Assembly (NCBI GenBank): GCA_018303545.1
Contig: JAGVXY010000009.1
Coordinates: 24,350-88,349 of the forward strand
DNA length: 64,000 nt
Direction of reading: 5' to 3'
Source of the DNA: Candidatus Woesearchaeota archaeon
GTDB lineage: Archaea > Nanobdellota > Nanobdellia > SCGC-AAA011-G17 > JAGVXY01
The first letter of the stretch is position 1. Each line of letters starts with the position of its first letter. This document shows positions 3,739-41,369 of the stretch, one piece after another. A model generated the notes under the pieces. It saw only the letters and a program-made list of their open reading frames with translations, did not search any database and was not told the origin of the DNA. Position numbers and translations under genes: made by a program.

Positions 3739-4728
3739 ATGGTAAATTTCAATAAAACTATCTTAATTACTGCATTAATTGCGTTCTCTATTTTAATAGT
3801 ATTGCTCAACACCGGAGAACCAGTGCTAACTTCAAAAACAATAATTCAAGAAAAACCTGTAATAAAGGAATATGGCCCTGAAATAAAAGTCTATTTCTGT
3901 CAGATGGAAAACTGTAGTTTGAAATTAATAGAATATATTAAAAACGCAACTACAATTCATTGCGCATTTTTTGATTTAGACAATAAACCCATAATAAATG
4001 CATTATTAAATAAAAAAGATGTTAAAATTGTTCTTGATGATACAAGCAAAACAACTTATCCTTATGCAAGAACAGATAATCAAAATCAATTAAGTCATAA
4101 TAAATTTTGCGTTTTCGATTCTTCAATCATCTGGACTGGCAGCCAGAATCCAACAGATCGCTGTACTTATCTCAATGATAATAATGCAATAGTAATAGAA
4201 TCAAAAACTTTGGCAAAAAATTATGAGGCTGAATTCGTAGAGCTTTGGAATGGAATTTACGGCAGAGGTTACGAAATAAGCAACCCAATCATTTATTTTA
4301 ATGATAAAAAAATAGAAAATTATTTCTGTCCTGAAGATGATTGCAAAAAGCAGGTCTTAAAAACCTTAAACAGCGCATCAGAATCAATTTATATTCTAGC
4401 TTTCAGTCTTACATTAGATGAAATAGGTGATTTGTTAATAAAAAAACAATCTGACTTGGATATAAAGGGGGTCTTTGAAAGAACTCAAGTAAATAAGTAT
4501 CATGAATTTTATAAGCTGAATGATTCAAATATCTCGGTTAAGTGGGATTCAAATAAATATAACATGCACCACAAAGTTTTCATAATAGACAAAAAAATAG
4601 TTCTTACAGGTTCTGCTAATCCTACGCAAGGGGGCTATGAAAAGAACGATGAAAATATTTTGATAATTCATGATGAAACTATTGCAAATTATTACCTGAG
4701 AGAGTTTAATCGTATCTGGAACAGGTAA
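3739..4728 (+). CDS. Phospholipase D superfamily protein with two HKD motifs, N-terminal signal/TM
   Basis: Motifs HNKFCVFDSSIIWTGSQNPT and HHKVFIIDKKIVLTGSANPT, each HxKx4Dx6GSxN. N-terminal hydrophobic segment ILITALIAFSILIVLL. Confidence 0.8.
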   Translation: MVNFNKTILITALIAFSILIVLLNTGEPVLTSKTIIQEKPVIKEYGPEIKVYFCQMENCSLKLIEYIKNATTIHCAFFDLDNKPIINALLNKKDVKIVLDDTSKTTYPYARTDNQNQLSHNKFCVFDSSIIWTGSQNPTDRCTYLNDNNAIVIESKTLAKNYEAEFVELWNGIYGRGYEISNPIIYFNDKKIENYFCPEDDCKKQVLKTLNSASESIYILAFSLTLDEIGDLLIKKQSDLDIKGVFERTQVNKYHEFYKLNDSNISVKWDSNKYNMHHKVFIIDKKIVLTGSANPTQGGYEKNDENILIIHDETIANYYLREFNRIWNR

Positions 4729-4761
4729 AGTATATAAATAAAATTAGATTCTTGAAGCAAT

Positions 4762-6531
4762 ATGTCACGTATAGCAATAGTAAATAAGGATAAATGTAAT
4801 CCGGTAAACTGCGGCAACCATTTTTGCATGCGTATCTGCCCCAGGAACATGCTTGGAGAGGAGTGCATAGTTAAGGGACCAGACTCAAAACCAATAATTG
4901 ACGAAGTTCTCTGTACCGGCTGTGGCATATGCACACATCGTTGTATTTTCGAAGCAATAAGAATAATAAATCTCCCGGAGGCATTAAAAGAAAATCCGGT
5001 CCATCGTTTTGGTGCCAATGCATTCGAATTATTTCATTTGCCGATTCCTAAAAAAGGCAAAGTTGTAGGAATCATAGGAAGAAATGGTATAGGAAAATCT
5101 ACTGCTTTCAATATTCTTTCAGGAAAAGTTATTCCCAATTTAGGCAATTATAATAAGGAACCATCGAAAGAAGAAATTATTGCAAAATATTCAACAACTC
5201 AATTAGGGGATTATTTTAGGCAATTATATGCAAATAAAATAGTTGTTTCATACAAACCTCAGAGAATAGAATTATTACCAAAAGTATACTCAGGAAAGGT
5301 CGGAGCACTATTAAAGAAAATAGATGAAAGAAAAATTTCAGAAAAATTAATGAAAGAATTAGAATTGGAAAACTTAAAAGACCGTGAATTAAGTCAGCTT
5401 TCAGGCGGTGAATTGCAAAAGGTCGCAATAATCGCAGCAGCTTCAAAAAAAGCAGATGTTTACTATTTTGATGAGCCGGCTTCATTTTTAGACGTTACTG
5501 CAAGAATTAAAGTTGCAAAATTAATTCGAGATTTGGCAGAAGATTCAGCAGTTTTAGTAGTTGAGCATGATTTAGCAACAATAGATTATATCAGCGATGA
5601 AATTCAGATCGTTTATGGTCAAGCTGGCGCTTATGGAGTTATATCCAACTCCCAAGGTGTAAGTCGTGGAATAAATGAATATTTAGACGGCTTCATAACC
5701 AGTGATAATGTTCGTTTTAGAGACTATTCGATAGTTTTTGGTAAATATAACGTAGAAAAAAGAAGGCATGAAATTTTATTCGAACTCCCCGAATTTGAAA
5801 AATCATTCGGTGATTTTAAATTAAAAACAATCAAAGGTGAAATCATTAAAGGCGAAGTTATGACTATCATGGGTGCAAACGGCTTAGGAAAAACAACTTT
5901 CCTCAAATTATTAGCAGGAGAAATAAAACCAGATAAAGGTTTAGTGAAAGAAAAAATAAAGATCGCTTACAAGGTGCAATATCCTACATCGGATGTTGAA
6001 GGCACAGTGCAAATGTGGCTTTTAAAATCCGCAAGAGAATTATTCAATTCCGGTTGGTACAAGCAGAACATTCTGGAAAAATTAGGATTAAATAAATTAT
6101 TAGACAATGAAATAAAGCATCTTTCGGGCGGTGAATTGCAGAAAGTTTACATTGCAGTTACTTTATCGCAAGATGCAGATATTTATGCTTTTGATGAGCC
6201 TTCAGCATTCATTGATGTCGAAGATCGTTTAAAAGTTGCAGAAGTAATAAAAGAATTCATAATCAAAAAAGACAAAGCTGCAATAGTAGTAGACCATGAT
6301 GTTCAGTTCATAGATTACATTTCAGATTCTATGCTTGTTTTCGAAGGCGTTCCTGGAAAGCACGGCAAAGTTGAAGGTCCCTTGAGCAAAACAGATGGCA
6401 TGAACAAAGTTTTAAAAATGTTAGATATAACTTATAGAGTAGATAAAGAAAACAACCGTCCAAGAATCAACAAGCACAATTCAGCGTTAGATAAAACGCA
6501 AAAGAAAGAAAATAAGTATTATCGCAGTTAA
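4762..6531 (+). CDS. abcE1: ABCE1 / RNase L inhibitor (ribosome recycling ATPase)
   Basis: N-terminal 4Fe-4S cysteine clusters (CNPVNCGNHFCMRICP, CTGCGICTHRC), then two ABC domains with GRNGIGKST/GANGLGKTT, LSGGELQKV x2 and Walker B. Confidence 0.95.
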   Translation: MSRIAIVNKDKCNPVNCGNHFCMRICPRNMLGEECIVKGPDSKPIIDEVLCTGCGICTHRCIFEAIRIINLPEALKENPVHRFGANAFELFHLPIPKKGKVVGIIGRNGIGKSTAFNILSGKVIPNLGNYNKEPSKEEIIAKYSTTQLGDYFRQLYANKIVVSYKPQRIELLPKVYSGKVGALLKKIDERKISEKLMKELELENLKDRELSQLSGGELQKVAIIAAASKKADVYYFDEPASFLDVTARIKVAKLIRDLAEDSAVLVVEHDLATIDYISDEIQIVYGQAGAYGVISNSQGVSRGINEYLDGFITSDNVRFRDYSIVFGKYNVEKRRHEILFELPEFEKSFGDFKLKTIKGEIIKGEVMTIMGANGLGKTTFLKLLAGEIKPDKGLVKEKIKIAYKVQYPTSDVEGTVQMWLLKSARELFNSGWYKQNILEKLGLNKLLDNEIKHLSGGELQKVYIAVTLSQDADIYAFDEPSAFIDVEDRLKVAEVIKEFIIKKDKAAIVVDHDVQFIDYISDSMLVFEGVPGKHGKVEGPLSKTDGMNKVLKMLDITYRVDKENNRPRINKHNSALDKTQKKENKYYRS

Positions 6532-7340: not shown

Positions 7341-8528
7341 ATGGCCCGTAAAGTCTCAATTTGCATTGATGGAGTTCCCTTTAGGACTATAATAGATCTG
7401 CAAAAACAGGGGTATTTCCAAGAGTTTAAAGCGCCAAATAGGGTTATCTCAGCATATCCTAGTTTGACAAGGCCAAACCATTCTGTATTTCACAATTATA
7501 AGAAGCCAAAATGTTACGAATCTATTGGTTTTCAAAAGCGCAAGAACCTTCCGTACTATATTATAATAGATAAGGATTTCAGAAAAAAGAAGACTTTTGA
7601 ATCTCTTTACACCACAGTCGGAAAGACAAGAGACAAAATTAGGGCTTTCACAAAATCATATTTCAGCCCAAACCATAAAAAACTATTTAAAAAACTTGAG
7701 GCTCAATTAGAACGCTACATTTTAGGCAATTATAGCAACAATATCTGGGTTATTACTTATGATCAAATAACACATAGATATGGCACAGAACGCACAAAAA
7801 GAGAATTAAAAAGTCTCTCGAAATTATTTTCTCGTATAATCCATGAGCATCCTGAATTAGAAATCTCTTTATGGTCCGATCATGGGGCAATAAACTGTAC
7901 TCATTTCATTGACTTAAAGCGCAAATTCAAGGATTATGGTTTCAGTGTTCACAATAGATTGTGGAAAGAAAAATCAGTCATCCTCTCTGCTCCAGGTATA
8001 ACTAATTTTATCCCCTTATTTCACACTCCTTCGTATAGCAAAGAGATTCACGCAATATTGGACAAAATAGATGAAATTAGCTTCTTTGTTTATCATGAAA
8101 AAGAAGACATAATCATTAGAAAAAATAAATTAACAGCTAGAATCACAAAAAGGGAAAATAAATTTAAATATGAAGTTTTAACAGGAGACCCTCTAAATTA
8201 TTCTGAAATAATAAATAATCTTGAAAAAGATCAAAATGGATTTATATCCAATGATTTATTATTTATAAATACAACAAATCATAAATATCCCGATGCATTG
8301 CATCGCATATATAATGCATTTCGTATAGTTGAAAATCCCGGTGATGTTTTGATAGATTTAGAGGAAGGATTTTTCTTCGGGAAAAAAATTTTCAGGAAAG
8401 GGGGCAAAGGCACCCATGGCAGTTTATCAAATAATTGTTCAGAATGTTTTTATATGGATCTTAATCAAGAAAGAGATACCTCAAAAGTTTTAAGAATTGA
8501 AGAAGTTTCTGAACATTTCAATGTCTGA
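7341..8528 (+). CDS. Alkaline-phosphatase-superfamily protein, type I phosphodiesterase / nucleotide pyrophosphatase-like
   Basis: N-terminal metal site ICIDGVPFRT and nucleophile motif PSLTRPNHSVF, compared with NPP DGFR and TKTFPNH. Confidence 0.6.
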   Translation: MARKVSICIDGVPFRTIIDLQKQGYFQEFKAPNRVISAYPSLTRPNHSVFHNYKKPKCYESIGFQKRKNLPYYIIIDKDFRKKKTFESLYTTVGKTRDKIRAFTKSYFSPNHKKLFKKLEAQLERYILGNYSNNIWVITYDQITHRYGTERTKRELKSLSKLFSRIIHEHPELEISLWSDHGAINCTHFIDLKRKFKDYGFSVHNRLWKEKSVILSAPGITNFIPLFHTPSYSKEIHAILDKIDEISFFVYHEKEDIIIRKNKLTARITKRENKFKYEVLTGDPLNYSEIINNLEKDQNGFISNDLLFINTTNHKYPDALHRIYNAFRIVENPGDVLIDLEEGFFFGKKIFRKGGKGTHGSLSNNCSECFYMDLNQERDTSKVLRIEEVSEHFNV

Positions 8529-8667
8529 ATTCTTTTCTATTAAGTGGCATAAACAGCCTTATTATTCAAAATATATGATTTAAATGAGAAATTTTTATAA
8601 ACAGCCATTAAATAATAGATTAGAACATAATTTTATATCATTTACAATAAAAGGGGGATGAATAAAA

Positions 8668-27328: not shown

Positions 27329-27574
27329 TTATAGATATTTTTTTCTATGCCTAATTTCAATTATAAATATTGTTAGTTTATTTTCTTTTATATCTAAGAT
27401 TAAACGGTATTCTCCAACTCTTAATCTAAAATATGGTGAGTTAACAAGTCTTAAGATATAAGAGTAAGGCCGTATTTTTATTCTTTCTAAAGTAGAAATG
27501 ATTCTTTTTTGAACTTCTCGATTAAATTTGTAAAACTGTTTTTCAGCAGTTTCGGAGAATTCAAAAGAATACAT
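27329..27574 (-). CDS. RelE/ParE family toxin
   Basis: RLRVGEYRLILDIKENKLTIFIIEIRHRKKYL C-terminal signature. Confidence 0.75.
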   Translation of the reverse strand: MYSFEFSETAEKQFYKFNREVQKRIISTLERIKIRPYSYILRLVNSPYFRLRVGEYRLILDIKENKLTIFIIEIRHRKKYL

Positions 27575-27813
27575 TACAGCTTCAGCTCTTTCTTTATTTT
27601 ATCTAACGTTACAGTTTTTCCCTCTTTTATTTCTTTTTCGGACTGGGCTATATTTTTCTTTGTTTCTTCAGATAACTCCATGGTATCTTCAAGAAGATCC
27701 CAAATTACTTCTTCATAACTTTCCTTTTCATACATTTTTCTGTCTCTTAATGTATCCATCAATTTTTCACTTATTTGTATTGTTGTAGCCATAGCCATTA
27801 TATAACCCACCAT
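27574..27813 (-). CDS. Antitoxin partner of the RelE-like toxin
   Basis: 79-aa acidic helical protein directly upstream. The stop abuts the toxin start by 1 nt. Confidence 0.55.
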   Translation of the reverse strand: MVGYIMAMATTIQISEKLMDTLRDRKMYEKESYEEVIWDLLEDTMELSEETKKNIAQSEKEIKEGKTVTLDKIKKELKL

Positions 27814-33295: not shown

Positions 33296-33700
33296 ATGGC
33301 AAAATCAGTTGTTCACGTTTCAGGAAAAAGAAAATCTGCAATCGCAAGAGCAACTCTTGTAGAGGGCAAAGGAAGCGTAAGAATAAATGGTCAGAAGCTG
33401 GATACATTTGGAAATTCTCTTGCTCGTGACCGCATTATAGAACCATTGATGATTGCAGGGGATTTTTCAAAGAAAATCGATATTTCTGTTAATGTTTATG
33501 GCGGAGGCTGGCAGGGCCAAGCTGAAGCTTCAAGATTAGTTGTTGCCAAGGGATTAGTAGAATTCACGGGCAGCAAGAAATTAAAGCAGGACTTTTTAGA
33601 TTATGACAGGCATCTTTTAGTTGCTGACGTCAGAAGAAAAGAACCAAGAAAACCAAACGATTCCAAAGCAAGAGCTAACCGTCAGAAGTCGTACAGATAA
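33296..33700 (+). CDS. rps9: Ribosomal protein S9 (uS9)
   Basis: GKRKSAIARATLVEGKGSVRING...ANRQKSYR C-terminus. Confidence 0.95.
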   Translation: MAKSVVHVSGKRKSAIARATLVEGKGSVRINGQKLDTFGNSLARDRIIEPLMIAGDFSKKIDISVNVYGGGWQGQAEASRLVVAKGLVEFTGSKKLKQDFLDYDRHLLVADVRRKEPRKPNDSKARANRQKSYR

Positions 33701-33743: not shown

Positions 33744-33817
33744 GGGCCCATAGCTTAGCTTGGTTGAGCAACTGACTCTTAATCAGTAGGTCAAGGGTTC
33801 AAATCCCTTTGGGCCCG
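33744..33817 (+). tRNA. tRNA-Lys (anticodon CTT)
   Basis: Hand-folded. Acceptor GGGCCCA/TGGGCCC, D-arm with GG, anticodon stem ACTGA/TCAGT, loop CTCTTAA, T-arm AAGGG-TTCAAAT-CCCTT, followed by an oligo-T terminator. Confidence 0.85.
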
Positions 33818-33964
33818 CTTTTTTAGCAATATCTTCAGATTCGTATCTTCCAAGTTTGAAAGGAAAAAAATATTTAGAATTTGTATTCTCGATGTAGTTA
33901 GAAATTTAATAAGAATACCCTCTCTTTTTTATTTGTGCAAAAAATTATATTCTTTTTTATAAAT

Positions 33965-34555
33965 CTAACGCCTTAAATAGGTTATTACTTCTCTAAAACC
34001 TGCCTTCATAAGCAAGGTTTTATCTTTGTTTGCGGGAATATATGTGAACTGCCTATTGTAAGCAATTATTTCTGGCCCATAAGTCATATTGAATGAAAGC
34101 AAATTAATAGAATCCTTCTTGAAGACTAATCTATCTCGTGCGGACACGGCAAAATTAGCTGCTCCAAGAAATAAAGCAATATCTTCTGGATGAAAATGGC
34201 ATATGCCCTGGTATTTTCCCCTACAAGGAAAAAGTTTAACAGTTGATCTAAATCCCTCTCCAATAAGGCCCAGTTTTTTGCCTGTTCCAATATCTAAAAT
34301 ATTGTTAATTTGAACATAATGCTTAAAGCTCTGCTCCTGCAGCAAAGTACCCCATTCTATCTTGCTTTTTTCAGCGGTTTTTTGTAGAATTCCCTCTAAT
34401 CCAAATAAATCCGTAATCTGTACATATTCTGCAAATTCATATCTGCATTCTTCTTTATATTTTTGTATAAGCTGAATTTCTCTGTTAAGTCTGTATACAG
34501 AACAAACTCGAATAGAATTAAAAAGTATACCCAGCATATAACTCAATGGGTCCAT
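33965..34555 (-). CDS. Hypothetical protein (196 aa), last gene of the nucleotidyltransferase-module operon
   Basis: ORF only. Contains CHFHPED...SARD, but the spacing does not fit the JAB HxHx7Sx2D motif. Confidence 0.35.
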   Translation of the reverse strand: MDPLSYMLGILFNSIRVCSVYRLNREIQLIQKYKEECRYEFAEYVQITDLFGLEGILQKTAEKSKIEWGTLLQEQSFKHYVQINNILDIGTGKKLGLIGEGFRSTVKLFPCRGKYQGICHFHPEDIALFLGAANFAVSARDRLVFKKDSINLLSFNMTYGPEIIAYNRQFTYIPANKDKTLLMKAGFREVITYLRR

Positions 34556-34615
34556 TACACATAAAGCAAATGCATTTAGATTAATAAAATATGCCTATGC
34601 AGGGATTCGAAAACC

Positions 34616-34768
34616 TTATTTGATAATTTTTTTATGCTGGGAGCTCCATATTTTATTTGGAGTCTTTTTGACCCATTCAGCATACATATCAATAAACTTC
34701 AGTCTCTCTTCAAAGTTTTGTTCTTTGGATTTTTTCAGTTTATTCAAATCTATATTTAGATTTTTCAT
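34616..34768 (-). CDS. 50-aa small partner protein of the nucleotidyltransferase-like gene (module copy A)
   Basis: Absent from the ORF track (<60 aa). Hand-translated MKNLNIDLNKLKKSKEQNFEERLKFIDMYAEWVKKTPNKIWSSQHKKIIK. ATGA overlap with the upstream gene. Homologous to 61296..61499 (LKFIDMYAEWVKK vs LEYVEFYAEKLKE). Confidence 0.45.
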   Translation of the reverse strand: MKNLNIDLNKLKKSKEQNFEERLKFIDMYAEWVKKTPNKIWSSQHKKIIK

Positions 34769-35364
34769 TTTATATATTTGTTATATTTTTCTTCTATTTT
34801 AAGCTTTCTATTGAATGAATGCATTTTTTCTAAATTCAATTTGTCTTTGAATATTCTAAACAGATATCTTGCATCTTCTATGTCTTTCTCACTGCCCAAA
34901 AATAGTTTATATGATATCTGCAATTCTAATGGAGAAATATAAGTTAAGTTGCCATTTAATATCACCTTAATTCTCGAATTCAATGCCAATTCCCCTATCC
35001 TGTCTTGGGGAAACTTAATTTCCATATTGGGTAAAAATTCGCCCTTAAATGAGAACCTTATCGCATTGTTATTCAAAAGATATTGTTCGTAGGCAGTTTT
35101 TGCATCTTCGGTATTTAAGCATTCAAATTTCTCATATAATTTTAACCACAAATCTTGAAATCTCGTAAAAGTTAATTTTTCAAATAAAAGATCAATGTCC
35201 TCCGATGATCTGCTGCGCCCGAATAATATCGCAACATAACCTGACACTACAACATATTTAATTCCCAAATCATTCAATATTGACACAAACTCTATTGCAA
35301 ATTCATCTAGGGGACTGAGTTCTTTTTTGAATGCAATCTCATTCTCTGAATAATCTAATTCCAT
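34765..35364 (-). CDS. Pol-beta-superfamily nucleotidyltransferase-like protein with helical C-terminal domain (module copy A)
   Basis: VVVSGYVAILFGRSRSSEDIDLLF (a hG[GS]x9-13DhD-type motif). Clear paralog of 61496..62098 across three blocks. Confidence 0.55.
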   Translation of the reverse strand: MELDYSENEIAFKKELSPLDEFAIEFVSILNDLGIKYVVVSGYVAILFGRSRSSEDIDLLFEKLTFTRFQDLWLKLYEKFECLNTEDAKTAYEQYLLNNNAIRFSFKGEFLPNMEIKFPQDRIGELALNSRIKVILNGNLTYISPLELQISYKLFLGSEKDIEDARYLFRIFKDKLNLEKMHSFNRKLKIEEKYNKYIK

Positions 35365-35429
35365 ACATCTTTTAATATTTCAAAAGCAATTTATAAACCT
35401 TGCGCGACCATTTGGCAAGTGAATAGAAA

Positions 35430-35513
35430 CGCCTAGGCAGGGATTCGAACCCCGAAATCCTTGCGGAAACTGGCTCTCAAGGCCAGCGCACTACCAGGTT
35501 ATGCGACCTAGGC
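35430..35513 (-). tRNA. tRNA-Ser (anticodon TGA)
   Basis: Hand-folded from the reverse complement. Acceptor GCCTAGG/CCTAGGC, anticodon stem CTGGC/GCCAG, loop CTTGAGA, long variable arm, T-arm CGGGG-TTCGAAT-CCCTG. 84 nt. Confidence 0.85.
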
Positions 35514-35542
35514 ACTAAAGTAAATCTCCTCAAATAGAATAT

Positions 35543-35809
35543 TTAAACCTTTTTATTTTCAGCTATTTTGAGTATATCCAATTCTTTCATGCCTTTTGCA
35601 ATCAATCTTTTCTTTCCTTCTTTCGCTATCATTTCAAGCTCTTTTATCAGATCTTCTTTTGAGGGAATGTTAATTTTCTTCAGTATTACACTGTCTTTGC
35701 TTCCTATTACTGCAAACACAGTTCCCTCAACCGCATTAAGCTCGCCCCTTATATCTTGGGGAATTACAATCTGCCCTTTCGATGACATTTTTACCGTTTC
35801 AATATCCAT
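35543..35809 (-). CDS. AbrB/MazE/SpoVT-type DNA-binding protein (antitoxin-like)
   Basis: SSKGQIVIPQDIRGEL swapped-hairpin motif. The likely start is the internal Met at 35809, preceded by GGAGGT 7 nt upstream. Confidence 0.65.
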   Translation of the reverse strand: MDIETVKMSSKGQIVIPQDIRGELNAVEGTVFAVIGSKDSVILKKINIPSKEDLIKELEMIAKEGKKRLIAKGMKELDILKIAENKKV

Positions 35810-35828
35810 TTTAAATACCTCCAACAAT

Positions 35829-35847
35829 CTTACTTTCTTACAGTAAG
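35829..35847. repeat. Inverted repeat cttact-N7-agtaag upstream of the AbrB-like gene (between tRNA-Ser and tnpB)
   Basis: Seen directly. Possible operator, or left-end hairpin of the TnpB element. Confidence 0.3.
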
Positions 35848-35997
35848 ACAATAGAATATTTAAAGCTTTTTATTTTAACCATTTAAGTTTAAAGAACATA
35901 ATGCCTTACAATATGCCACAGTTGAGCAACATTATTAAACAAACCACTTGACAAACGCGCACGATTGGTTTATAATATTACTTTTGCATAAATTCAT

Positions 35998-37170
35998 TTG
36001 ATGATAAAAAACTACAAGTTTAGGATTTATCCAAATAAAATGCAGAATAATGCACTGCAAACCACATTGAAACAGGTTAGATTCGTGTACAATAAGCAGC
36101 TAGAACTTAAAATTAAGATATACAAAGATGAAAGCAAAAACCTTTCACAATTTGAATTGAACGATTATTTAATCGAATTAAAGAAAAAATATCCCTTTCT
36201 TCTAAAGCTGCATTCTCAAGTTCTGCAGAATATAAATCAAAGAATCAACTTAGCATTCAAGAGTTTTTACCTCAGGGCAAAAAGAGGCGAGAAGCCAGGG
36301 TTTCCAAGATTTAAGGGCAAGAATAGATATGATTCAATAACTTATCCGCAATCTGGATTTTCATTGAATGACAAGTTATATATTTCAAAAATCGGGGAAA
36401 TAAATATAGTGAAACATAGGTATATCAAAGGAAGGATAAAGACAATGACTATAAAAAGAACTGCTACAAACAAATGGTTTGCATTTTTTACCGCAATGCA
36501 AGAAAATAAACCTAGCAAAATAATCAATAGGCAAATAGTGGGCATAGATCTCGGACTATCTCATTTTTATGCAGATAGCAGAGGGAATATCATAAATAAC
36601 CCAAGATATCTGAGAAACTCTGAGCAGAGATTAATAAAAATTCAAAGGAAACATTCAAGAAAAAGGAAAGGAGGCCATAACAGAAAAAAATCTAGATTAA
36701 AACTAGCTATAATCCATGAAAAGATCACTAACCAAAGGAATGATTTCTTGCATAAGGAATCAAGAAAATTGGCAAATGATTACTCATTCGTTGCTGTTGA
36801 AAAATTATCAATAAAAGATATGTCCAAAAACAGATACTTAGCGAAATCAATTGCAGATGTATCATGGCATAAATTTCTGCAGATGCTTGCTTACAAAGTG
36901 GAAGAAACTGGTGGCAAGCTCGTGAAAATTAATGCTCATGGAACGTCGCAGCATTGTATATGTGGCAATAAAGTAGAAAAGACGTTGGCAATAAGAACCC
37001 ATAGATGCAATAATTGCGGAGTTGAAATTGACAGAGATATTATGTCTGCAATCATTATAGAAAAACTTGCCTTTTTTGGCACTACCGCAGGAAGTGCGGA
37101 AAGTAACGCTTGGGGATATGAAAGGATGCTTTCGTCGGTGAACCAAGAACTCTCTTTGCATTCAAGTTGA
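35998..37170 (+). CDS. tnpB: IS200/IS605-family TnpB (OrfB; RuvC-like RNA-guided nuclease)
   Basis: OrfB N-terminus MIKNYKFRIYPNKMQ, RuvC-like IVGIDLG, zinc finger CICGNKVEKTLAIRTHRCNNCG. 390 aa. Confidence 0.9.
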   Translation: MMIKNYKFRIYPNKMQNNALQTTLKQVRFVYNKQLELKIKIYKDESKNLSQFELNDYLIELKKKYPFLLKLHSQVLQNINQRINLAFKSFYLRAKRGEKPGFPRFKGKNRYDSITYPQSGFSLNDKLYISKIGEINIVKHRYIKGRIKTMTIKRTATNKWFAFFTAMQENKPSKIINRQIVGIDLGLSHFYADSRGNIINNPRYLRNSEQRLIKIQRKHSRKRKGGHNRKKSRLKLAIIHEKITNQRNDFLHKESRKLANDYSFVAVEKLSIKDMSKNRYLAKSIADVSWHKFLQMLAYKVEETGGKLVKINAHGTSQHCICGNKVEKTLAIRTHRCNNCGVEIDRDIMSAIIIEKLAFFGTTAGSAESNAWGYERMLSSVNQELSLHSS

Positions 37171-37856: not shown

Positions 37857-38397
37857 ATCTTTCAGTTGGAATATTTAAATCTTCCCCTTCTATTATAAGG
37901 CAGTTTTCATCAAAGCTTACTTTAGATTCATTGGCTTGCATGAATTTAACAATAAGGATTTTATTGGTCGCATCTTTGCAGTCTTTTAATGGCAGATTCT
38001 CACACCCGCTTCCATCATTATAGCAGGCCATATTTGTTGCAGCAGGGATATACATTTTAAGATTATTTGTATATGAATATAACGCTGGACGGTAATTCAA
38101 TCCTGGTGCAACAGAAAAGTATGCTTTTTCATAGCTTGAATATTTAAATCCCTCTATGCCCACAAGAGTTATATTTTTCATCAATTCTCTAGGATCGTTC
38201 ATAAGTGTAATCAATACATCTTCATTATATCCAACCCAATTGCTGTCTACCTGAGTGAACTTATGTCCATTAAATTCAACCGTTTCATTACTCTCATCAC
38301 CAAAATAGCCAAACACACTAAAAGTCATGAGAAAAATAATTAATAACCCGAAAATTATCTGCGTTCTCTTCTTCTTTACCTTGTCTCTATCTCTCAT
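37831..38397 (-). CDS. Membrane-anchored hypothetical protein (tandem paralog B; KKKRTQ-hydrophobic N-terminus)
   Basis: See paralog A. N-terminus KKKRTQIIFGLLIIFLM. Confidence 0.4.
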   Translation of the reverse strand: MRDRDKVKKKRTQIIFGLLIIFLMTFSVFGYFGDESNETVEFNGHKFTQVDSNWVGYNEDVLITLMNDPRELMKNITLVGIEGFKYSSYEKAYFSVAPGLNYRPALYSYTNNLKMYIPAATNMACYNDGSGCENLPLKDCKDATNKILIVKFMQANESKVSFDENCLIIEGEDLNIPTERFVLETVFE

Positions 38398-40153: not shown

Positions 40154-40816
40154 TCATAATTCAACACTGCCGCTTAAGATAATTCCATTAAGAATATTCT
40201 CTCTAAGATTTTTATGTATTTCGTTCCATGACCCATAGAAATTTAAGCTTATTTTTCTCTCAAGCTTTTTTTCAAAATTGACCGTATTTACTTCTTTATC
40301 TTTAATTCCAATAATAGCAATATCAATATCCGAACAAAGTTCACCTACTTCATTGGCAATTATGTCTTCTCCTCTCGAATAGCTGCCAAATAAGACTATT
40401 GAAGCGCCGGGAAACAGTTCGTATAAGTATTCGGAAAGTCCAGATTCATATATCATCCTTAGATTTTCTGATCTTTTAAGCTCTATTGCTTTTGAATTAT
40501 TTCTGTTAAGCTCGACCATTGTTAAATTAATTGTTTTTGATTTTTTTATCATAACGAGCTCATCTTTACAAAATACCGTCAAAGAATTCGAAACAGCTGT
40601 CGGAGATGCTTTTAGCAATTTTGCTAGTTCCCGCATATTCATAGGCTGTCCGACTTTCAGGCAAAGTAATCTGAAAAGTTTAGCTTGTAAGCGTGTCCAA
40701 ATAAATTTATATATATCCATTTTATTAGATACGTATCCACTAAAGTTTATATAACTTTCGGTTTTATCATAATAATCAGTTTCAATTTCAGACGCAAGGC
40801 TCATAGTAATTCTCAA
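40154..40816 (-). CDS. wHTH-fused minimal nucleotidyltransferase (second of three in the window)
   Basis: IVLFGSYSRGEDI...SDIDIAII, N-terminal wHTH, C-terminal ENILNGIILSG shared with 48722..49252. Confidence 0.7.
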   Translation of the reverse strand: MRITMSLASEIETDYYDKTESYINFSGYVSNKMDIYKFIWTRLQAKLFRLLCLKVGQPMNMRELAKLLKASPTAVSNSLTVFCKDELVMIKKSKTINLTMVELNRNNSKAIELKRSENLRMIYESGLSEYLYELFPGASIVLFGSYSRGEDIIANEVGELCSDIDIAIIGIKDKEVNTVNFEKKLERKISLNFYGSWNEIHKNLRENILNGIILSGSVEL

Positions 40817-40964: not shown

Positions 40965-41369
40965 TTACCACGCACCTTGCGAAGATGAGATGTAGTGCTT
41001 GATGGTTTCTGTGGTCACGTTTCCAACGCTTCTGAAGAATTTGCCTGAACTCCAAAAATGTCCTCTTCTGAAGTGTCTCCTCAGCCAAGGATGCTGCTTA
41101 AAAATTCTGTAAGCAGAATATCCTTTGAATAATTGCAGCGCCTTGGAAACGCTTATTGTGTGTGGAACTTCGACAAAGATATGTATGTGGTCCGGCTGTA
41201 CGATGAGTTCATACACCTCAAATTTGTGCTTTGCAGCAACTTCCCGAAGGACTTGCTCGCAAAGATCCCTAAGTTTTGCGAATTTGAACGGATCTTTGGC
41301 ATATTTTGGCTTCCATACAAAGTGAAATGCATTCTGTCCCGCTGCGTGTCTAAATCTATTTATTTCCAT
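40965..41369 (-). CDS. tnpA: IS200/IS605-family Y1 (HUH) transposase TnpA
   Basis: HUH motif HIHIFVEVP, catalytic Tyr region GYSAYRIF, 134 aa. Confidence 0.9.
   Translation of the reverse strand: MEINRFRHAAGQNAFHFVWKPKYAKDPFKFAKLRDLCEQVLREVAAKHKFEVYELIVQPDHIHIFVEVPHTISVSKALQLFKGYSAYRIFKQHPWLRRHFRRGHFWSSGKFFRSVGNVTTETIKHYISSSQGAW

What the first reader, a model, noticed from the sequence alone, without database searches (positions are those of the whole stretch)
33744..35513. tRNA-Lys to tRNA-Ser interval forms an accessory islet at the end of the ribosomal operon
The conserved ribosomal operon ends at S9 and tRNA-Lys(CTT), where RpoN, RpoK, enolase and S2 often follow in archaea. What follows instead is a minus-strand three-gene unit, with tRNA-Ser(TGA) on the other side. 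That unit is the NTase-like gene, the 50-aa partner and an uncharacterised 196-aa protein. Directly beyond lie an AbrB-type regulator and a standalone TnpB. tRNA genes are classical integration sites. The region looks like a small integrated island.
Basis: inference. Interest (0 to 1): 0.5.

Follow-up and report, generated by a model that had tools for sequence, protein, structure and literature searches.

The report
Strain-variable two-gene cassette beside tRNA-Ser
The tRNA-Lys to tRNA-Ser interval is not one island: only an 836-bp, integrase-less two-gene cassette (a MenT1-like nucleotidyltransferase plus a 50-aa partner) at the 3' end of tRNA-Ser is present in some strains and absent in others, and the same cassette is bracketed by direct repeats in many other archaea.

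Summary

- **The variable unit.** It is window 34593-35428 (836 bp): ORF199, ORF50, their promoter, and a terminal 19-23-nt look-alike of the tRNA-Ser 3' end.
- **Empty sites.** Four independent assemblies of the same species have flanks 99.5-100% identical to the window but lack exactly this segment.
- **What is not part of it.** ORF196, tRNA-Lys, AbrB and TnpB are present in both alleles. ORF196 belongs to a separate chromosomal family with a JAMM-like motif.
- **Wider pattern.** Across DPANN, Thermoplasmata, Thaumarchaeota and Methanoperedens, about a quarter of loci carry 22-162-nt direct repeats around the pair. These often duplicate the 3' end of the upstream gene (tRNA-Ile, glmS, thrS, GT2, hsdS). 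No integrase, inverted ends or fixed termini were found.

Best reading: a toxin-antitoxin-like mobile cassette that inserts at gene 3' ends through a target-like segment it carries. The mechanism is unproven. No sequence-level family match or literature was found for either protein.

The parts
33744..33818 (+). tRNA-Lys(CTT). It ends the ribosomal-protein operon and is not involved in the variable segment.
   Evidence: No repeat of its 3' end in the window. Present in both empty and occupied alleles.
33965..34555 (-). ORF196, a resident gene outside the cassette. It is a divergent, shortened member of an uncharacterised ~245-aa family with an E...HxH...SxxD (JAMM-like) motif.
   Evidence: Present in both empty and occupied alleles. 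The word-index search found only itself, but the exhaustive HMMER search found 135 cluster representatives, 120 at E<=1e-10. Invariant E67, H120, H122 and nearly invariant D141. Homologues sit in ordinary chromosomal contexts. No Pfam or PDB sequence hit.
34593..35428 (-). The strain-variable 836-bp insertion (the cassette). It lies between ...CCTAGGCGT and ATATTTTATT... of the empty site.
   Evidence: Alignment of the occupied window with four empty-site contigs L101, L102, L103 and L106. BLAST breakpoints fall at 35429 and 34611.
34593..34615 (-). Look-alike of the tRNA-Ser 3' end (T-loop, T-stem 3' strand and acceptor 3' strand). It forms the distal end of the insertion and acts as an att-like direct repeat.
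   Evidence: (D10) and 22: 18/19 and 20/23 identity, 0 expected by chance. It differs from the resident tRNA end at positions where all flanks are identical between alleles.
34616..34768 (-). ORF50, a small basic partner protein (precomputed Pfam PF26477, DUF8150). It is translationally coupled to ORF199.
   Evidence: It follows ORF199 in 79 of 80 loci.
34765..35364 (-). ORF199, a MenT1-like minimal nucleotidyltransferase. Invariant residues include G49, R50, R52, E55, D56, D58, E115 and K153.
35380..35401 (-). BRE/TATA-like promoter element inside the cassette (AAGGTTTATAAAT on the minus strand), 16-38 nt upstream of the ORF199 ATG.
   Evidence: Member of repeat family D1 together with the elements upstream of tRNA-Ser, AbrB and the 216-aa gene. 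The promoter assignment is an inference from the archaeal consensus.
35429..35514 (-). tRNA-Ser(TGA), the target. Its 3' end abuts the insertion. The gene sequence is identical in both alleles.
35543..35851 (-). AbrB/SpoVT-type gene, outside the variable segment.
   Evidence: Present in empty alleles.
35998..37170 (+). TnpB (IS200/IS605-type RNA-guided nuclease), outside the variable segment.
   Evidence: Present in empty alleles.

Best explanation
The interval has two unrelated parts.

**Resident part.** tRNA-Lys and ORF196 are present in all strains.

**Variable part.** An 836-bp cassette (34593-35428) was inserted exactly at the 3' end of tRNA-Ser(TGA) in part of the population. It carries its own promoter, a 199-aa MenT1-like nucleotidyltransferase, a coupled 50-aa DUF8150 protein, and a 19-23-nt look-alike of the tRNA-Ser 3' end at its far end.

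**Wider pattern.** The same two-gene module occurs in many archaeal phyla as a self-contained unit without an integrase. It is often bracketed by 22-162-nt direct repeats that duplicate the end of the upstream gene.

**Most likely mechanism (inferred).** The cassette travels together with a short copy of its target. That segment recombines with the resident gene, as a Campbell-type integration of an excised circle, using host recombination or an enzyme supplied in trans. This leaves the target gene intact and creates the repeat. The module then persists because it behaves as a toxin-antitoxin-like addiction pair: the nucleotidyltransferase would modify tRNA 3' ends as MenT1 does, and ORF50 would block it.

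**Shown:** the insertion, its exact borders, the population polymorphism, the fold, the strict gene pairing, and the enrichment of repeats.

**Inferred:** the direction of the event, the donor origin of the repeat, the recombination route, and the toxin-antitoxin function.

**Sub-confidences:** discrete strain-variable insertion 0.95; mobile cassette across archaea 0.8; toxin-antitoxin-like function 0.5; homology-guided Campbell-type route 0.35.
For: **Empty sites.**
- Four independent assemblies (L101 from GCA_036722875.1, L102, L103, L106) carry TnpB-AbrB-tRNA-Ser-ORF196-tRNA-Lys-S9 without the pair.
- Their flanks are 99.5-100% identical to the window.
- The same flanking SNP haplotype occurs with and without the cassette.
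- The junctions are exact: empty ...CCTAGGCGT|ATATTTT; occupied ...CCTAGGCGT[TTCTATTC...TAAGGTTTTCGAATCCCTGCATAGGC]ATATTTT.

**Direction and origin.**
- The terminal tRNA-like segment differs from the resident tRNA end (C>A, GGGG>GGTT, GT missing) while all neighbouring sequence is identical. It therefore most likely arrived with the cassette.
- The empty allele cannot be produced from the occupied one by recombination between the repeats.

**Repeat significance.** 0 chance matches are expected in the window.

**Family evidence.**
- More than 2000 homologues were found.
- ORF50 follows ORF199 in 79 of 80 loci.
- Exact flanking repeats of at least 17 nt occur in 14 of 68 loci, against 1 of 277 shifted control intervals.
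- About 19 of 78 loci have repeats of 22-162 nt.
- The repeats duplicate the ends of tRNA-Ile, GlmS, ThrS, GT2 and HsdS-like genes, usually ending 0-7 nt from the gene end.
- Cassettes 82-90% identical in DNA sit in unrelated flanks in Methanoperedens, Nitrososphaera and Thermoplasmatales.
- In Methanoperedens the hsdS-like segment travels with the cassette.

**Fold and precedent.**
- MenT1 is neutralised by a short helical 68-aa protein of which 32 aa suffice (PMC10435456).
Against: - **No recombinase in reach.** No integrase or other recombinase lies in the cassette or within the ~18 kb of neighbouring called genes carrying precomputed Pfam labels.
- **Imprecise joint.** A reciprocal crossover in TAGGC predicts ...CATAGGCGTATATT at the distal junction. 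The observed junction lacks GT, so the joint is not a clean site-specific or homologous product.
- **Short homology.** Only 13 nt are exact, or 19 with one mismatch.
- **Diverse targets.** The variety of targets (at least 8 kinds) requires the cassette to acquire new target segments repeatedly, which the model does not explain.
- **Multi-copy repeats elsewhere.** In L016 and L070 the 'repeat' is a multi-copy promoter element between successive cassettes.
- **Stable lineages.** In several lineages the pair is stably placed, and three quarters of loci show no repeat.
- **No donor.** No close donor is known; the nearest homologue is 63% identical.
- **No sequence membership.** ORF199 does not belong to the DUF1814/AbiEii family by sequence. 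The gene order is toxin-first, the reverse of menA1-menT1.
- **High conservation.** 47-63% identity across phyla is unusually high for a toxin.
- **Ordinary composition.** GC, GC3 and codon usage are unremarkable.
Confidence: 0.7

Rival explanations
1. First reader's model. The whole tRNA-Lys to tRNA-Ser interval (three genes, perhaps with AbrB and TnpB) is one integrase-mediated island.
For: tRNA genes lie on both sides. There is an att-like repeat. An IS-type TnpB and an antitoxin-like AbrB lie next door.
Against: The repeat and the empty-site alleles delimit only 34593-35428. ORF196, AbrB and TnpB are in both alleles. There is no tRNA-Lys repeat, no integrase, and ordinary composition. ORF196 never co-occurs with the pair elsewhere.
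Confidence: 0.03
2. The cassette is the last remnant of a larger integrase-carrying element that integrated into tRNA-Ser and then decayed. The addictive pair and the two att sites are what survived.
For: The direct repeat of a tRNA 3' end with mismatches is typical of attL/attR of integrative elements. Toxin-antitoxin pairs resist deletion (established knowledge). In L016 the pair sits among cassettes next to a Bro-N gene.
Against: - Only two states (empty and 836 bp) appear across the independent assemblies examined (at least four empty, at least six occupied), and both occur on shared flanking haplotypes. That leaves no room for multi-step decay.
- In L003, L041 and L073 the repeats abut the ORFs within 0-3 nt on both sides. 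Independent deletions would rarely achieve this.
- About 19 lineages with different targets all retain just the pair.
Confidence: 0.12
3. No dedicated machinery. The pair is copied into new sites by replication template switching or homology-facilitated illegitimate recombination after DNA uptake. The repeats are by-products, and the pair recurs only because addiction fixes rare insertions.
For: - Repeat length is variable (22-162 nt). There are no fixed termini and no inverted ends: 1 of 67 loci against 1 of 277 controls.
- The distal joint in the window has no microhomology and has lost 2 nt.
- L079 has an inverted copy of the target next to the direct one, which is a template-switch signature.
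Against: - The upstream repeat ends within 0-7 nt of a gene end in 8 independent cases, and the junctions are operon-perfect (stop, 1 nt, ATG in L041 and L073). That is more order than random events predict.
- The window's repeat is divergent at birth, which points to a carried target copy.
- It has not been tested whether other small accessory genes show the same signature.
Confidence: 0.2
4. The pair mobilises itself. The nucleotidyltransferase, with ORF50, catalyses insertion at gene 3' ends and generates long target duplications. This would be a new kind of mobile element.
For: - The mobile unit can be reduced to the two ORFs alone (gaps of 0-3 nt in L003, L041, L073).
- The pair is strictly conserved and unusually well conserved in sequence across phyla.
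- No other enzyme travels with it.
Against: The fold groups with tRNA- and small-molecule nucleotidyltransferases (MenT1, ANT(2''), LnuA), not with polymerases or any known recombinase. The window's repeat is not a fresh duplication. There is no biochemical precedent.
Confidence: 0.1
5. The occupied state is ancestral, and the empty alleles are deletions.
For: Direct repeats promote deletion. The repeat is diverged, as expected of an old insertion.
Against: Recombination between the two repeat copies would give ...TAGGCATATT or carry the A variant. All four empty alleles read ...CCTAGGCGTATATT, which is not derivable that way. The divergence of the 25-nt repeat (3 substitutions plus a 2-nt gap) is far above the 0.03-0.5% diversity of the flanks.
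Confidence: 0.08

Closest known systems
MenAT1 (Rv0078B-Rv0078A) and the wider MenT/AbiEii nucleotidyltransferase toxin-antitoxin systems
   Different: There is no sequence-level membership: no Pfam AbiEii/DUF1814, NCBIfam or PADLOC hit. Identity to MenT1 is 13%. The partner is DUF8150, unrelated to MenA1 or the COG5340 antitoxins. The gene order is toxin-first. The system is archaeal. Toxicity and tRNA modification are untested.
tRNA-targeting integrative elements of archaea (SSV-type and pNOB8-type integrase elements, genomic islands)
   Same: The insertion sits exactly at the 3' end of a tRNA gene. A copy of the tRNA 3' end lies at the far border. The tRNA is kept intact. The element is present or absent among strains.
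   Different: There is no integrase, whole or split. The element is 0.84 kb rather than 5-40 kb. Targets differ widely between related cassettes, including protein-gene ends and promoters. The repeat length is 22-162 nt with no conserved core.
Integron gene cassettes (including archaeal integrons and toxin-antitoxin cassettes in chromosomal arrays)
   Same: One- or two-gene units are inserted without their own recombinase. Toxin-antitoxin cargo is common. In L016 and L070 the pair lies in an array of cassettes separated by a near-identical ~115-143-nt repeat.
   Different: No attC-type imperfect inverted repeat lies at the cassette end, and no IntI is nearby. In the window the repeat is a tRNA fragment. 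Most repeats are copies of the neighbouring host gene.
Phages and elements that carry a replacement 3' end of their target gene (established knowledge: e14 and phage 21 in icd)
   Same: A divergent duplicate of the target gene's 3' end lies on the far side of the insert, and the upstream gene stays intact. L081 has 162 nt at 88% identity, with a stop codon in the displaced copy.
   Different: Those elements encode their own integrase and use one fixed target.
IS200/IS605 elements with TnpB, and MITE-like derivatives
   Same: They are small, often non-autonomous, and create no target duplication of fixed length. A TnpB lies about 570 bp from the cassette and a Y1 TnpA lies at 40965-41369.
   Different: The cassette has no conserved subterminal hairpins or ends and no inverted repeats. 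TnpB is present in both alleles. IS200/IS605 transposition does not create long direct repeats (established knowledge).

Membership tests
Integrase-mediated tRNA-integrated island | Insertion at the 3' end of a tRNA gene, with the gene kept intact | tested here: met
   The insert starts 1 nt after the discriminator base of tRNA-Ser. The tRNA is identical in both alleles.
Integrase-mediated tRNA-integrated island | Direct repeat of the tRNA 3' end at the distal border (attL/attR) | tested here: met
   34593-34615 against 35431-35453: 18/19 and 20/23 identity, 0 expected by chance.
Integrase-mediated tRNA-integrated island | Tyrosine or serine recombinase gene within the element | tested here: not met
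   The element holds only ORF199 (nucleotidyltransferase fold) and ORF50. There are no recombinase hits in Pfam, NCBIfam, PADLOC or PHROGs.
Integrase-mediated tRNA-integrated island | Presence or absence among close relatives | tested here: met
   Four empty-site contigs have flanks 99.5-100% identical to the window.
Integrase-mediated tRNA-integrated island | Deviant composition or codon usage | tested here: not met
   ORF199 GC z = -1.4. GC3 and codon likelihood are within 0.4 sd. ORF196 z is about 0.
MenT/AbiEii (DUF1814) nucleotidyltransferase toxin-antitoxin | MenT-type nucleotidyltransferase fold | tested here: met
MenT/AbiEii (DUF1814) nucleotidyltransferase toxin-antitoxin | Sequence membership (Pfam AbiEii/DUF1814 or PADLOC AbiE models) | tested here: not met
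   No hit at E<=0.1 in Pfam, NCBIfam or PADLOC. A profile search against PDB gave only 5uvd at E 0.043.
MenT/AbiEii (DUF1814) nucleotidyltransferase toxin-antitoxin | Conserved catalytic carboxylates and Lys | tested here: inconclusive
   D56, D58, E115, K153, D161 and D164 are invariant in 40 sequences. No residue-by-residue structural superposition on MenT1 T39/D41/K137/D152 was possible.
MenT/AbiEii (DUF1814) nucleotidyltransferase toxin-antitoxin | Adjacent cognate antitoxin gene | tested here: inconclusive
   A coupled 50-aa gene follows in 79 of 80 loci. It is unrelated to known MenA or AbiEi proteins, and the gene order is reversed.
MenT/AbiEii (DUF1814) nucleotidyltransferase toxin-antitoxin | Toxicity, tRNA 3'-end extension, and neutralisation by the partner | not testable with these tools
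   Needs expression and in vitro nucleotidyl-transfer assays.
Transposon / insertion sequence | Transposase, terminal inverted repeats, short target duplication of fixed length | tested here: not met
   There is no transposase. Inverted flanks occur in 1 of 67 loci against 1 of 277 controls. Repeat length is 22-162 nt, and distances from the repeats to the ORFs vary from 0 to 250 nt.
Integron gene cassette | attC recombination site at the cassette 3' end and an IntI/attI platform | tested here: not met
   The window cassette ends in a tRNA fragment with no imperfect palindrome of attC type. No integrase was found in ~18 kb of annotated neighbours. Only L016 and L070 show array-like repeats.
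Conserved archaeal S9-RpoN-RpoK-enolase-S2 continuation | These genes follow S9 in close relatives, so their absence would mark an insertion | tested here: not met
   In 11 related loci (S9 57-71% identical) the operon is conserved up to S9, and unrelated genes follow.

The most novel reading that the evidence does not exclude
The ORF199-ORF50 pair is an autonomous, previously unrecognised kind of archaeal mobile element. It would be a two-gene unit of about 0.75 kb whose nucleotidyltransferase-fold protein (with DUF8150) directs its own insertion at the 3' ends of genes. It would produce long target-end duplications of variable length, without any integrase, transposase or defined termini.
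Probability: 0.12. Interest if true: 0.9.

Novelty: new variant of a known kind. Interest (0 to 1): 0.62.

Why it matters
Toxin-antitoxin genes are known to be patchy and mobile, but how a bare pair moves without a carrier element is largely unexplained.

This locus offers a natural experiment. Occupied and empty alleles of the same site occur in one population, with borders known to the base. The same cassette is flanked by copies of its target's end in at least four archaeal phyla.

It also assigns a MenT1-type tRNA nucleotidyltransferase fold to a large archaeal family of more than 2000 proteins. That family has no sequence-level family match, and no literature was found for it.

If the insertion route proves to be specific to the cassette, it would be a new way for small genes to spread in compact genomes while leaving essential targets such as tRNA, glmS and thrS intact.

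Tried and rejected
- **ORF196 as an orphan gene.** The word-index search found only itself, but the exhaustive HMMER search found 135 representatives. Claim rejected.
- **ORF196 as the conserved third gene of the unit.** It has no similarity to the 143-146-aa genes that follow the pair in L001 and L003 and is absent from all 80 loci. Rejected.
- **Structure of ORF196 from a single sequence.** pLDDT 29, unusable. Its JAMM-like motif rests only on conserved residues. No Pfam or PDB support.
- **tRNA adjacency as a general property of the pair.** Only about 5 of 81 loci have a tRNA within 300 nt. Rejected.
- **The tRNA-like fragment as a conserved functional RNA element after ORF50.** It is absent in L001, L003 and L005. 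Rejected.
- **Synteny test with S9 relatives.** The relatives are too distant, and nothing after S9 is shared. Uninformative about the insertion.
- **Composition and codon usage.** No signal.
- **Terminal inverted repeats around the pair.** None beyond chance.
- **Identical cassette proteins in different contexts.** P0019 and P0074 each have a single stable context.
- **Similarity of the cassette's 5' spacer to the TnpB upstream region.** The similarity is real but weak. The pattern search was circular. Left unexplained.
- **Literature.** Nothing on DUF8150, and no described integrase-less cassette of this kind in two searches.
- **AFDB fold search.** Library unavailable.
- **Crude motif search for RpoN, enolase and S2 in the window.** Found nothing. 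This is a weak test.
Full report
**1. Observation.**
- ARAGORN and Rfam confirm tRNA-Lys(CTT) at 33744-33818 (+) and tRNA-Ser(TGA) at 35429-35514 (-).
- The ribosomal-protein/RNA-polymerase operon (L21e ... S13-S4-S11-RpoD-L18e-L13-S9) ends with S9 at 33700.
- Three minus-strand ORFs lie between the tRNAs: ORF196 (33965-34555), ORF50 (34616-34768) and ORF199 (34765-35364), which overlaps ORF50 by 4 nt.
- An AbrB/SpoVT-type gene and a TnpB follow.
- None of the three ORFs hits Pfam, NCBIfam, PADLOC or PHROGs.

**2. An att-like repeat, but not where expected.**
- The repeat finder shows that 34593-34611 (GCCTATGCAGGGATTCGAA) copies the 3' end of tRNA-Ser (35431-35449) at 18 of 19 positions, or 20 of 23 when extended.
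- No such match is expected in shuffles of the 64-kb window.
- The copy lies between ORF196 and ORF50. It therefore brackets only ORF50 and ORF199.
- No copy of the tRNA-Lys 3' end exists.

**3. Empty sites in the same species.**
- Look-up of the exact ORF196 protein returned contigs from other samples. In these, TnpB, AbrB, tRNA-Ser, ORF196, tRNA-Lys and S9 are contiguous and the pair is missing: L101 (GCA_036722875.1), L102, L103 and L106.
- Other contigs (L007, L008, L009, L104, L105) carry the pair.
- Flanks are 99.5-100% identical to the window.
- The same flanking SNP haplotype occurs with and without the pair.
- The alignment gives exact borders:
  - empty: ...CCCTGCCTAGGCGT|ATATTTTATT...
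  - occupied: ...CCCTGCCTAGGCGT[TTCTATTC ... ORF199 ... ORF50 TAA GGTTTTCGAATCCCTGCATAGGC]ATATTTTATT...
- The insert is window 34593-35428 (836 bp).
- L102 has a scaffold gap flanked by two copies of the tRNA-Ser 3' half. This is what an assembler produces when both alleles are present.

**4. Direction and origin.**
- The distal tRNA-like segment differs from the resident tRNA end at several positions (C>A, GGGG>GGTT, GT missing). All surrounding sequence is identical between the alleles.
- Diversity in the flanks is 0.03-0.5%. The divergence of the 25-nt segment therefore cannot have arisen in this population. It most likely arrived with the cassette (inference).
- Recombination between the two repeat copies would not regenerate the ...GGCGTATATT seen in all four empty alleles. 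The empty state is therefore taken as ancestral (inference).
- GC, GC3 and codon usage of the insert and of ORF196 are ordinary.

**5. ORF199 and ORF50.**
- ORF199 has more than 2000 homologues. Nearly all are 197-203 aa and 47-63% identical.
- Invariant residues include G42, G49, R50, R52, E55, D56, D58, E115, K117, K153, D161 and D164.
- An AlphaFold model from a 40-sequence alignment has pLDDT 94.7.
- Foldseek against the PDB ranks the MenT1 toxin first (E 2e-6). MenT3, TM1012, ANT(2'')-Ia, LnuA and JHP933 follow.
- MenT1 adds nucleotides to tRNA 3' ends and is blocked by the 68-aa helical MenA1, of which 32 aa suffice. That operon is antitoxin-first (PMC10435456).
- ORF50 carries the precomputed label PF26477 (DUF8150) and is 54-62% identical to its counterparts.
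- ORF50 follows ORF199 in 79 of 80 genome loci. The one exception is cut off by a contig end.
- A toxin-antitoxin-like role is an inference from fold and gene arrangement. Sequence membership in DUF1814/AbiEii is not met.

**6. ORF196.**
- ORF196 is not part of the unit. It is present in both alleles, never accompanies the pair elsewhere, and is unrelated to the genes that follow the pair in other genomes.
- It first looked like an orphan gene. The exhaustive HMMER search then found 135 cluster representatives, 120 of them at E<=1e-10. Most are about 245 aa.
- The alignment shows invariant E67, H120 and H122, and nearly invariant D141, in an E...HxH...SxxD arrangement reminiscent of JAMM metalloproteases. 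The window's copy lacks an internal hydrophobic segment of about 50 aa.
- No Pfam or PDB sequence hit supports the JAMM assignment.
- Homologues lie beside r-protein, PfkB, NFACT and Topo VI genes.

**7. The pair as a cassette across archaea.** A scan of one genome per species found 177 loci, of which 80 were fetched. They come from Woese-, Pace-, Nano-, Aenigm-, Micr- and Iainarchaeota, Altiarchaeales, Thermoplasmata, Nitrososphaera/Thaumarchaeota and Methanoperedens.
- Neighbours differ from genome to genome.
- Exact direct repeats of at least 17 nt flank the pair in 14 of 68 loci, against 1 of 277 shifted control intervals.
- Local alignment finds flanking repeats of 22-162 nt (85-100% identity) in about 19 of 78 loci.
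- The repeat sequences are unrelated between loci. They duplicate the tRNA-Ile 3' end (L064, 25/25), the last 38 nt of glmS including the stop codon (L041), the ends of thrS and a convergent radical-SAM gene (L073), a GT2 gene (L079, L080), an HsdS-like gene (L081, 162 nt at 88%, with a stop codon in the displaced copy), a Pop5-like gene (L003), or promoter regions (L033, L053).
- In eight cases the upstream copy ends 0-7 nt from the end of a co-oriented gene.
- The distance from repeat to ORF ranges from 0 to about 250 nt, so there are no fixed termini. Inverted flanks are not enriched.
- Cassettes 82-90% identical in DNA lie in unrelated flanks in Methanoperedens, Nitrososphaera and Thermoplasmatales. 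One Thermoplasmata group and two Woesearchaeota populations keep a stable position.
- In Methanoperedens the hsdS-like segment upstream of the pair is shared by cassettes whose further flanks differ. This fits a target-like segment that travels with the cassette.

**8. Mechanism.**
- The pattern has three elements: the target gene is kept intact, a divergent copy of its 3' end lies on the far side, and there is no recombinase. It matches elements that carry a replacement end of their target, except that no integrase is present.
- The reading I favour is excision by recombination between the repeats, transfer, and reintegration through the carried target-like segment. The module would then be retained by addiction.
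- Against this reading: the 2-nt loss at the distal joint, the short homology (13-19 nt) and the diversity of targets.
- Rivals are a decayed larger element, replication template switching or illegitimate recombination, self-mobilisation by the nucleotidyltransferase, and deletion from an ancestral occupied state. They are weighed in the rival section.
- L079 shows an inverted copy of the target next to the direct one. L016 and L070 show arrays of cassettes separated by a multi-copy repeat. Neither observation is explained by the favoured model.

In the nearest available relatives (S9 57-71% identical) the operon is conserved up to S9. It is followed by unrelated genes, not by RpoN-RpoK-enolase-S2 and not by a tRNA-Lys. 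The operon end is a general synteny break in this lineage.

**10. Verdict.**
- The 'islet' is real but smaller than proposed and differently bounded.
- The cassette is a new variant of known kinds: a tRNA-associated integrated element and a MenT-like toxin-antitoxin pair.
- No literature was found on DUF8150 or on such a cassette.

Noticed in passing
window 35533-35559, 35850-35876; weaker copies at 35380-35401 and 37862-37883: The near-identical 27-nt element AATAGAATATTTAAA[C/G]CTTTTTATTTT (minus strand: ...AAGGTTTAAATATTC...) lies just upstream of tRNA-Ser, AbrB, ORF199 and the 216-aa gene. It is probably a strong BRE/TATA promoter consensus of this genome.
   Followed up: partly
window 35391-35421 versus 35945-35975: The cassette's 5' spacer is an inverted, 74% identical match of the region just upstream of TnpB (CACTTGNCAAA-N11-GGTTTATAA, with the ATG at a similar distance). 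It could be a shared operator or a shared origin. The TnpB copy also forms a perfect TTGACA-17-TATAAT.
   Followed up: partly
window 40965-41369 (-), 40154-40804 (-), and about 27330-27575: Precomputed Pfam labels on the same-species contig L007 show three features. A Y1 transposase (IS200-type TnpA) lies about 4 kb from the solitary TnpB. A second nucleotidyltransferase-like gene (NTP_transf_2, weak) lies beside it. [quoted passage not shown]
   Followed up: no
L016:4824-9172: Four copies of a ~115-143-nt repeat each precede a different gene block. The repeat holds a hairpin (CGCATAAC-T6-GTTATGCG) and ends in AAGGTTTATAA. The blocks are a Bro-N gene, the ORF199-ORF50 pair, three ORFs, and a 424-aa ORF. 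This is an array-like cassette arrangement. A DUF8150-like N-terminal motif recurs at 8523-8560.
   Followed up: partly
L079:6780-6813 versus L079:5780-5813: An inverted 34-nt copy (2 mismatches) of the GT2 gene segment immediately 5' of the upstream direct repeat lies between ORF50 and the downstream repeat. Direct plus inverted target duplication suggests template switching. It was seen in this locus only.
   Followed up: partly
L102:3809-3908: A run of N in a scaffold is flanked by two copies of the 3' half of tRNA-Ser. This is probably an assembly trace of both alleles (with and without the cassette) in one sample.
   Followed up: no
L060:4374-4867; L025 and L039: L060 (Altiarchaeia) holds a second, degenerate ORF199-like copy about 2.5 kb downstream of the intact pair. 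One MAG (AlinenSediments_bin-0934) holds two copies that are 92% identical in DNA on different contigs.
   Followed up: no
L058:2859-3370: A tandem duplication with 321-nt spacing covers the end of ORF50 and the sequence downstream of it.
   Followed up: no
L117 versus L116 (about 3838-4812): In another Woesearchaeota population a 324-aa HTH gene next to the pair is present in some contigs and absent in others. This is a separate indel polymorphism.
   Followed up: no
window 33965-34555 (ORF196): Relative to its ~245-aa family, the window's copy keeps the N-terminal MxxxxY..G motif but lacks an internal hydrophobic (probably membrane) segment of about 50 aa. It may be a soluble variant or a decaying gene. 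The only SNP seen among strains (34241) is at a third codon position.
   Followed up: partly
window 33870-33899: A cluster of four SNPs lies in the tRNA-Lys/ORF196 intergenic spacer. It is shared by two empty-site contigs (L103, L106) and absent from the others.
   Followed up: no
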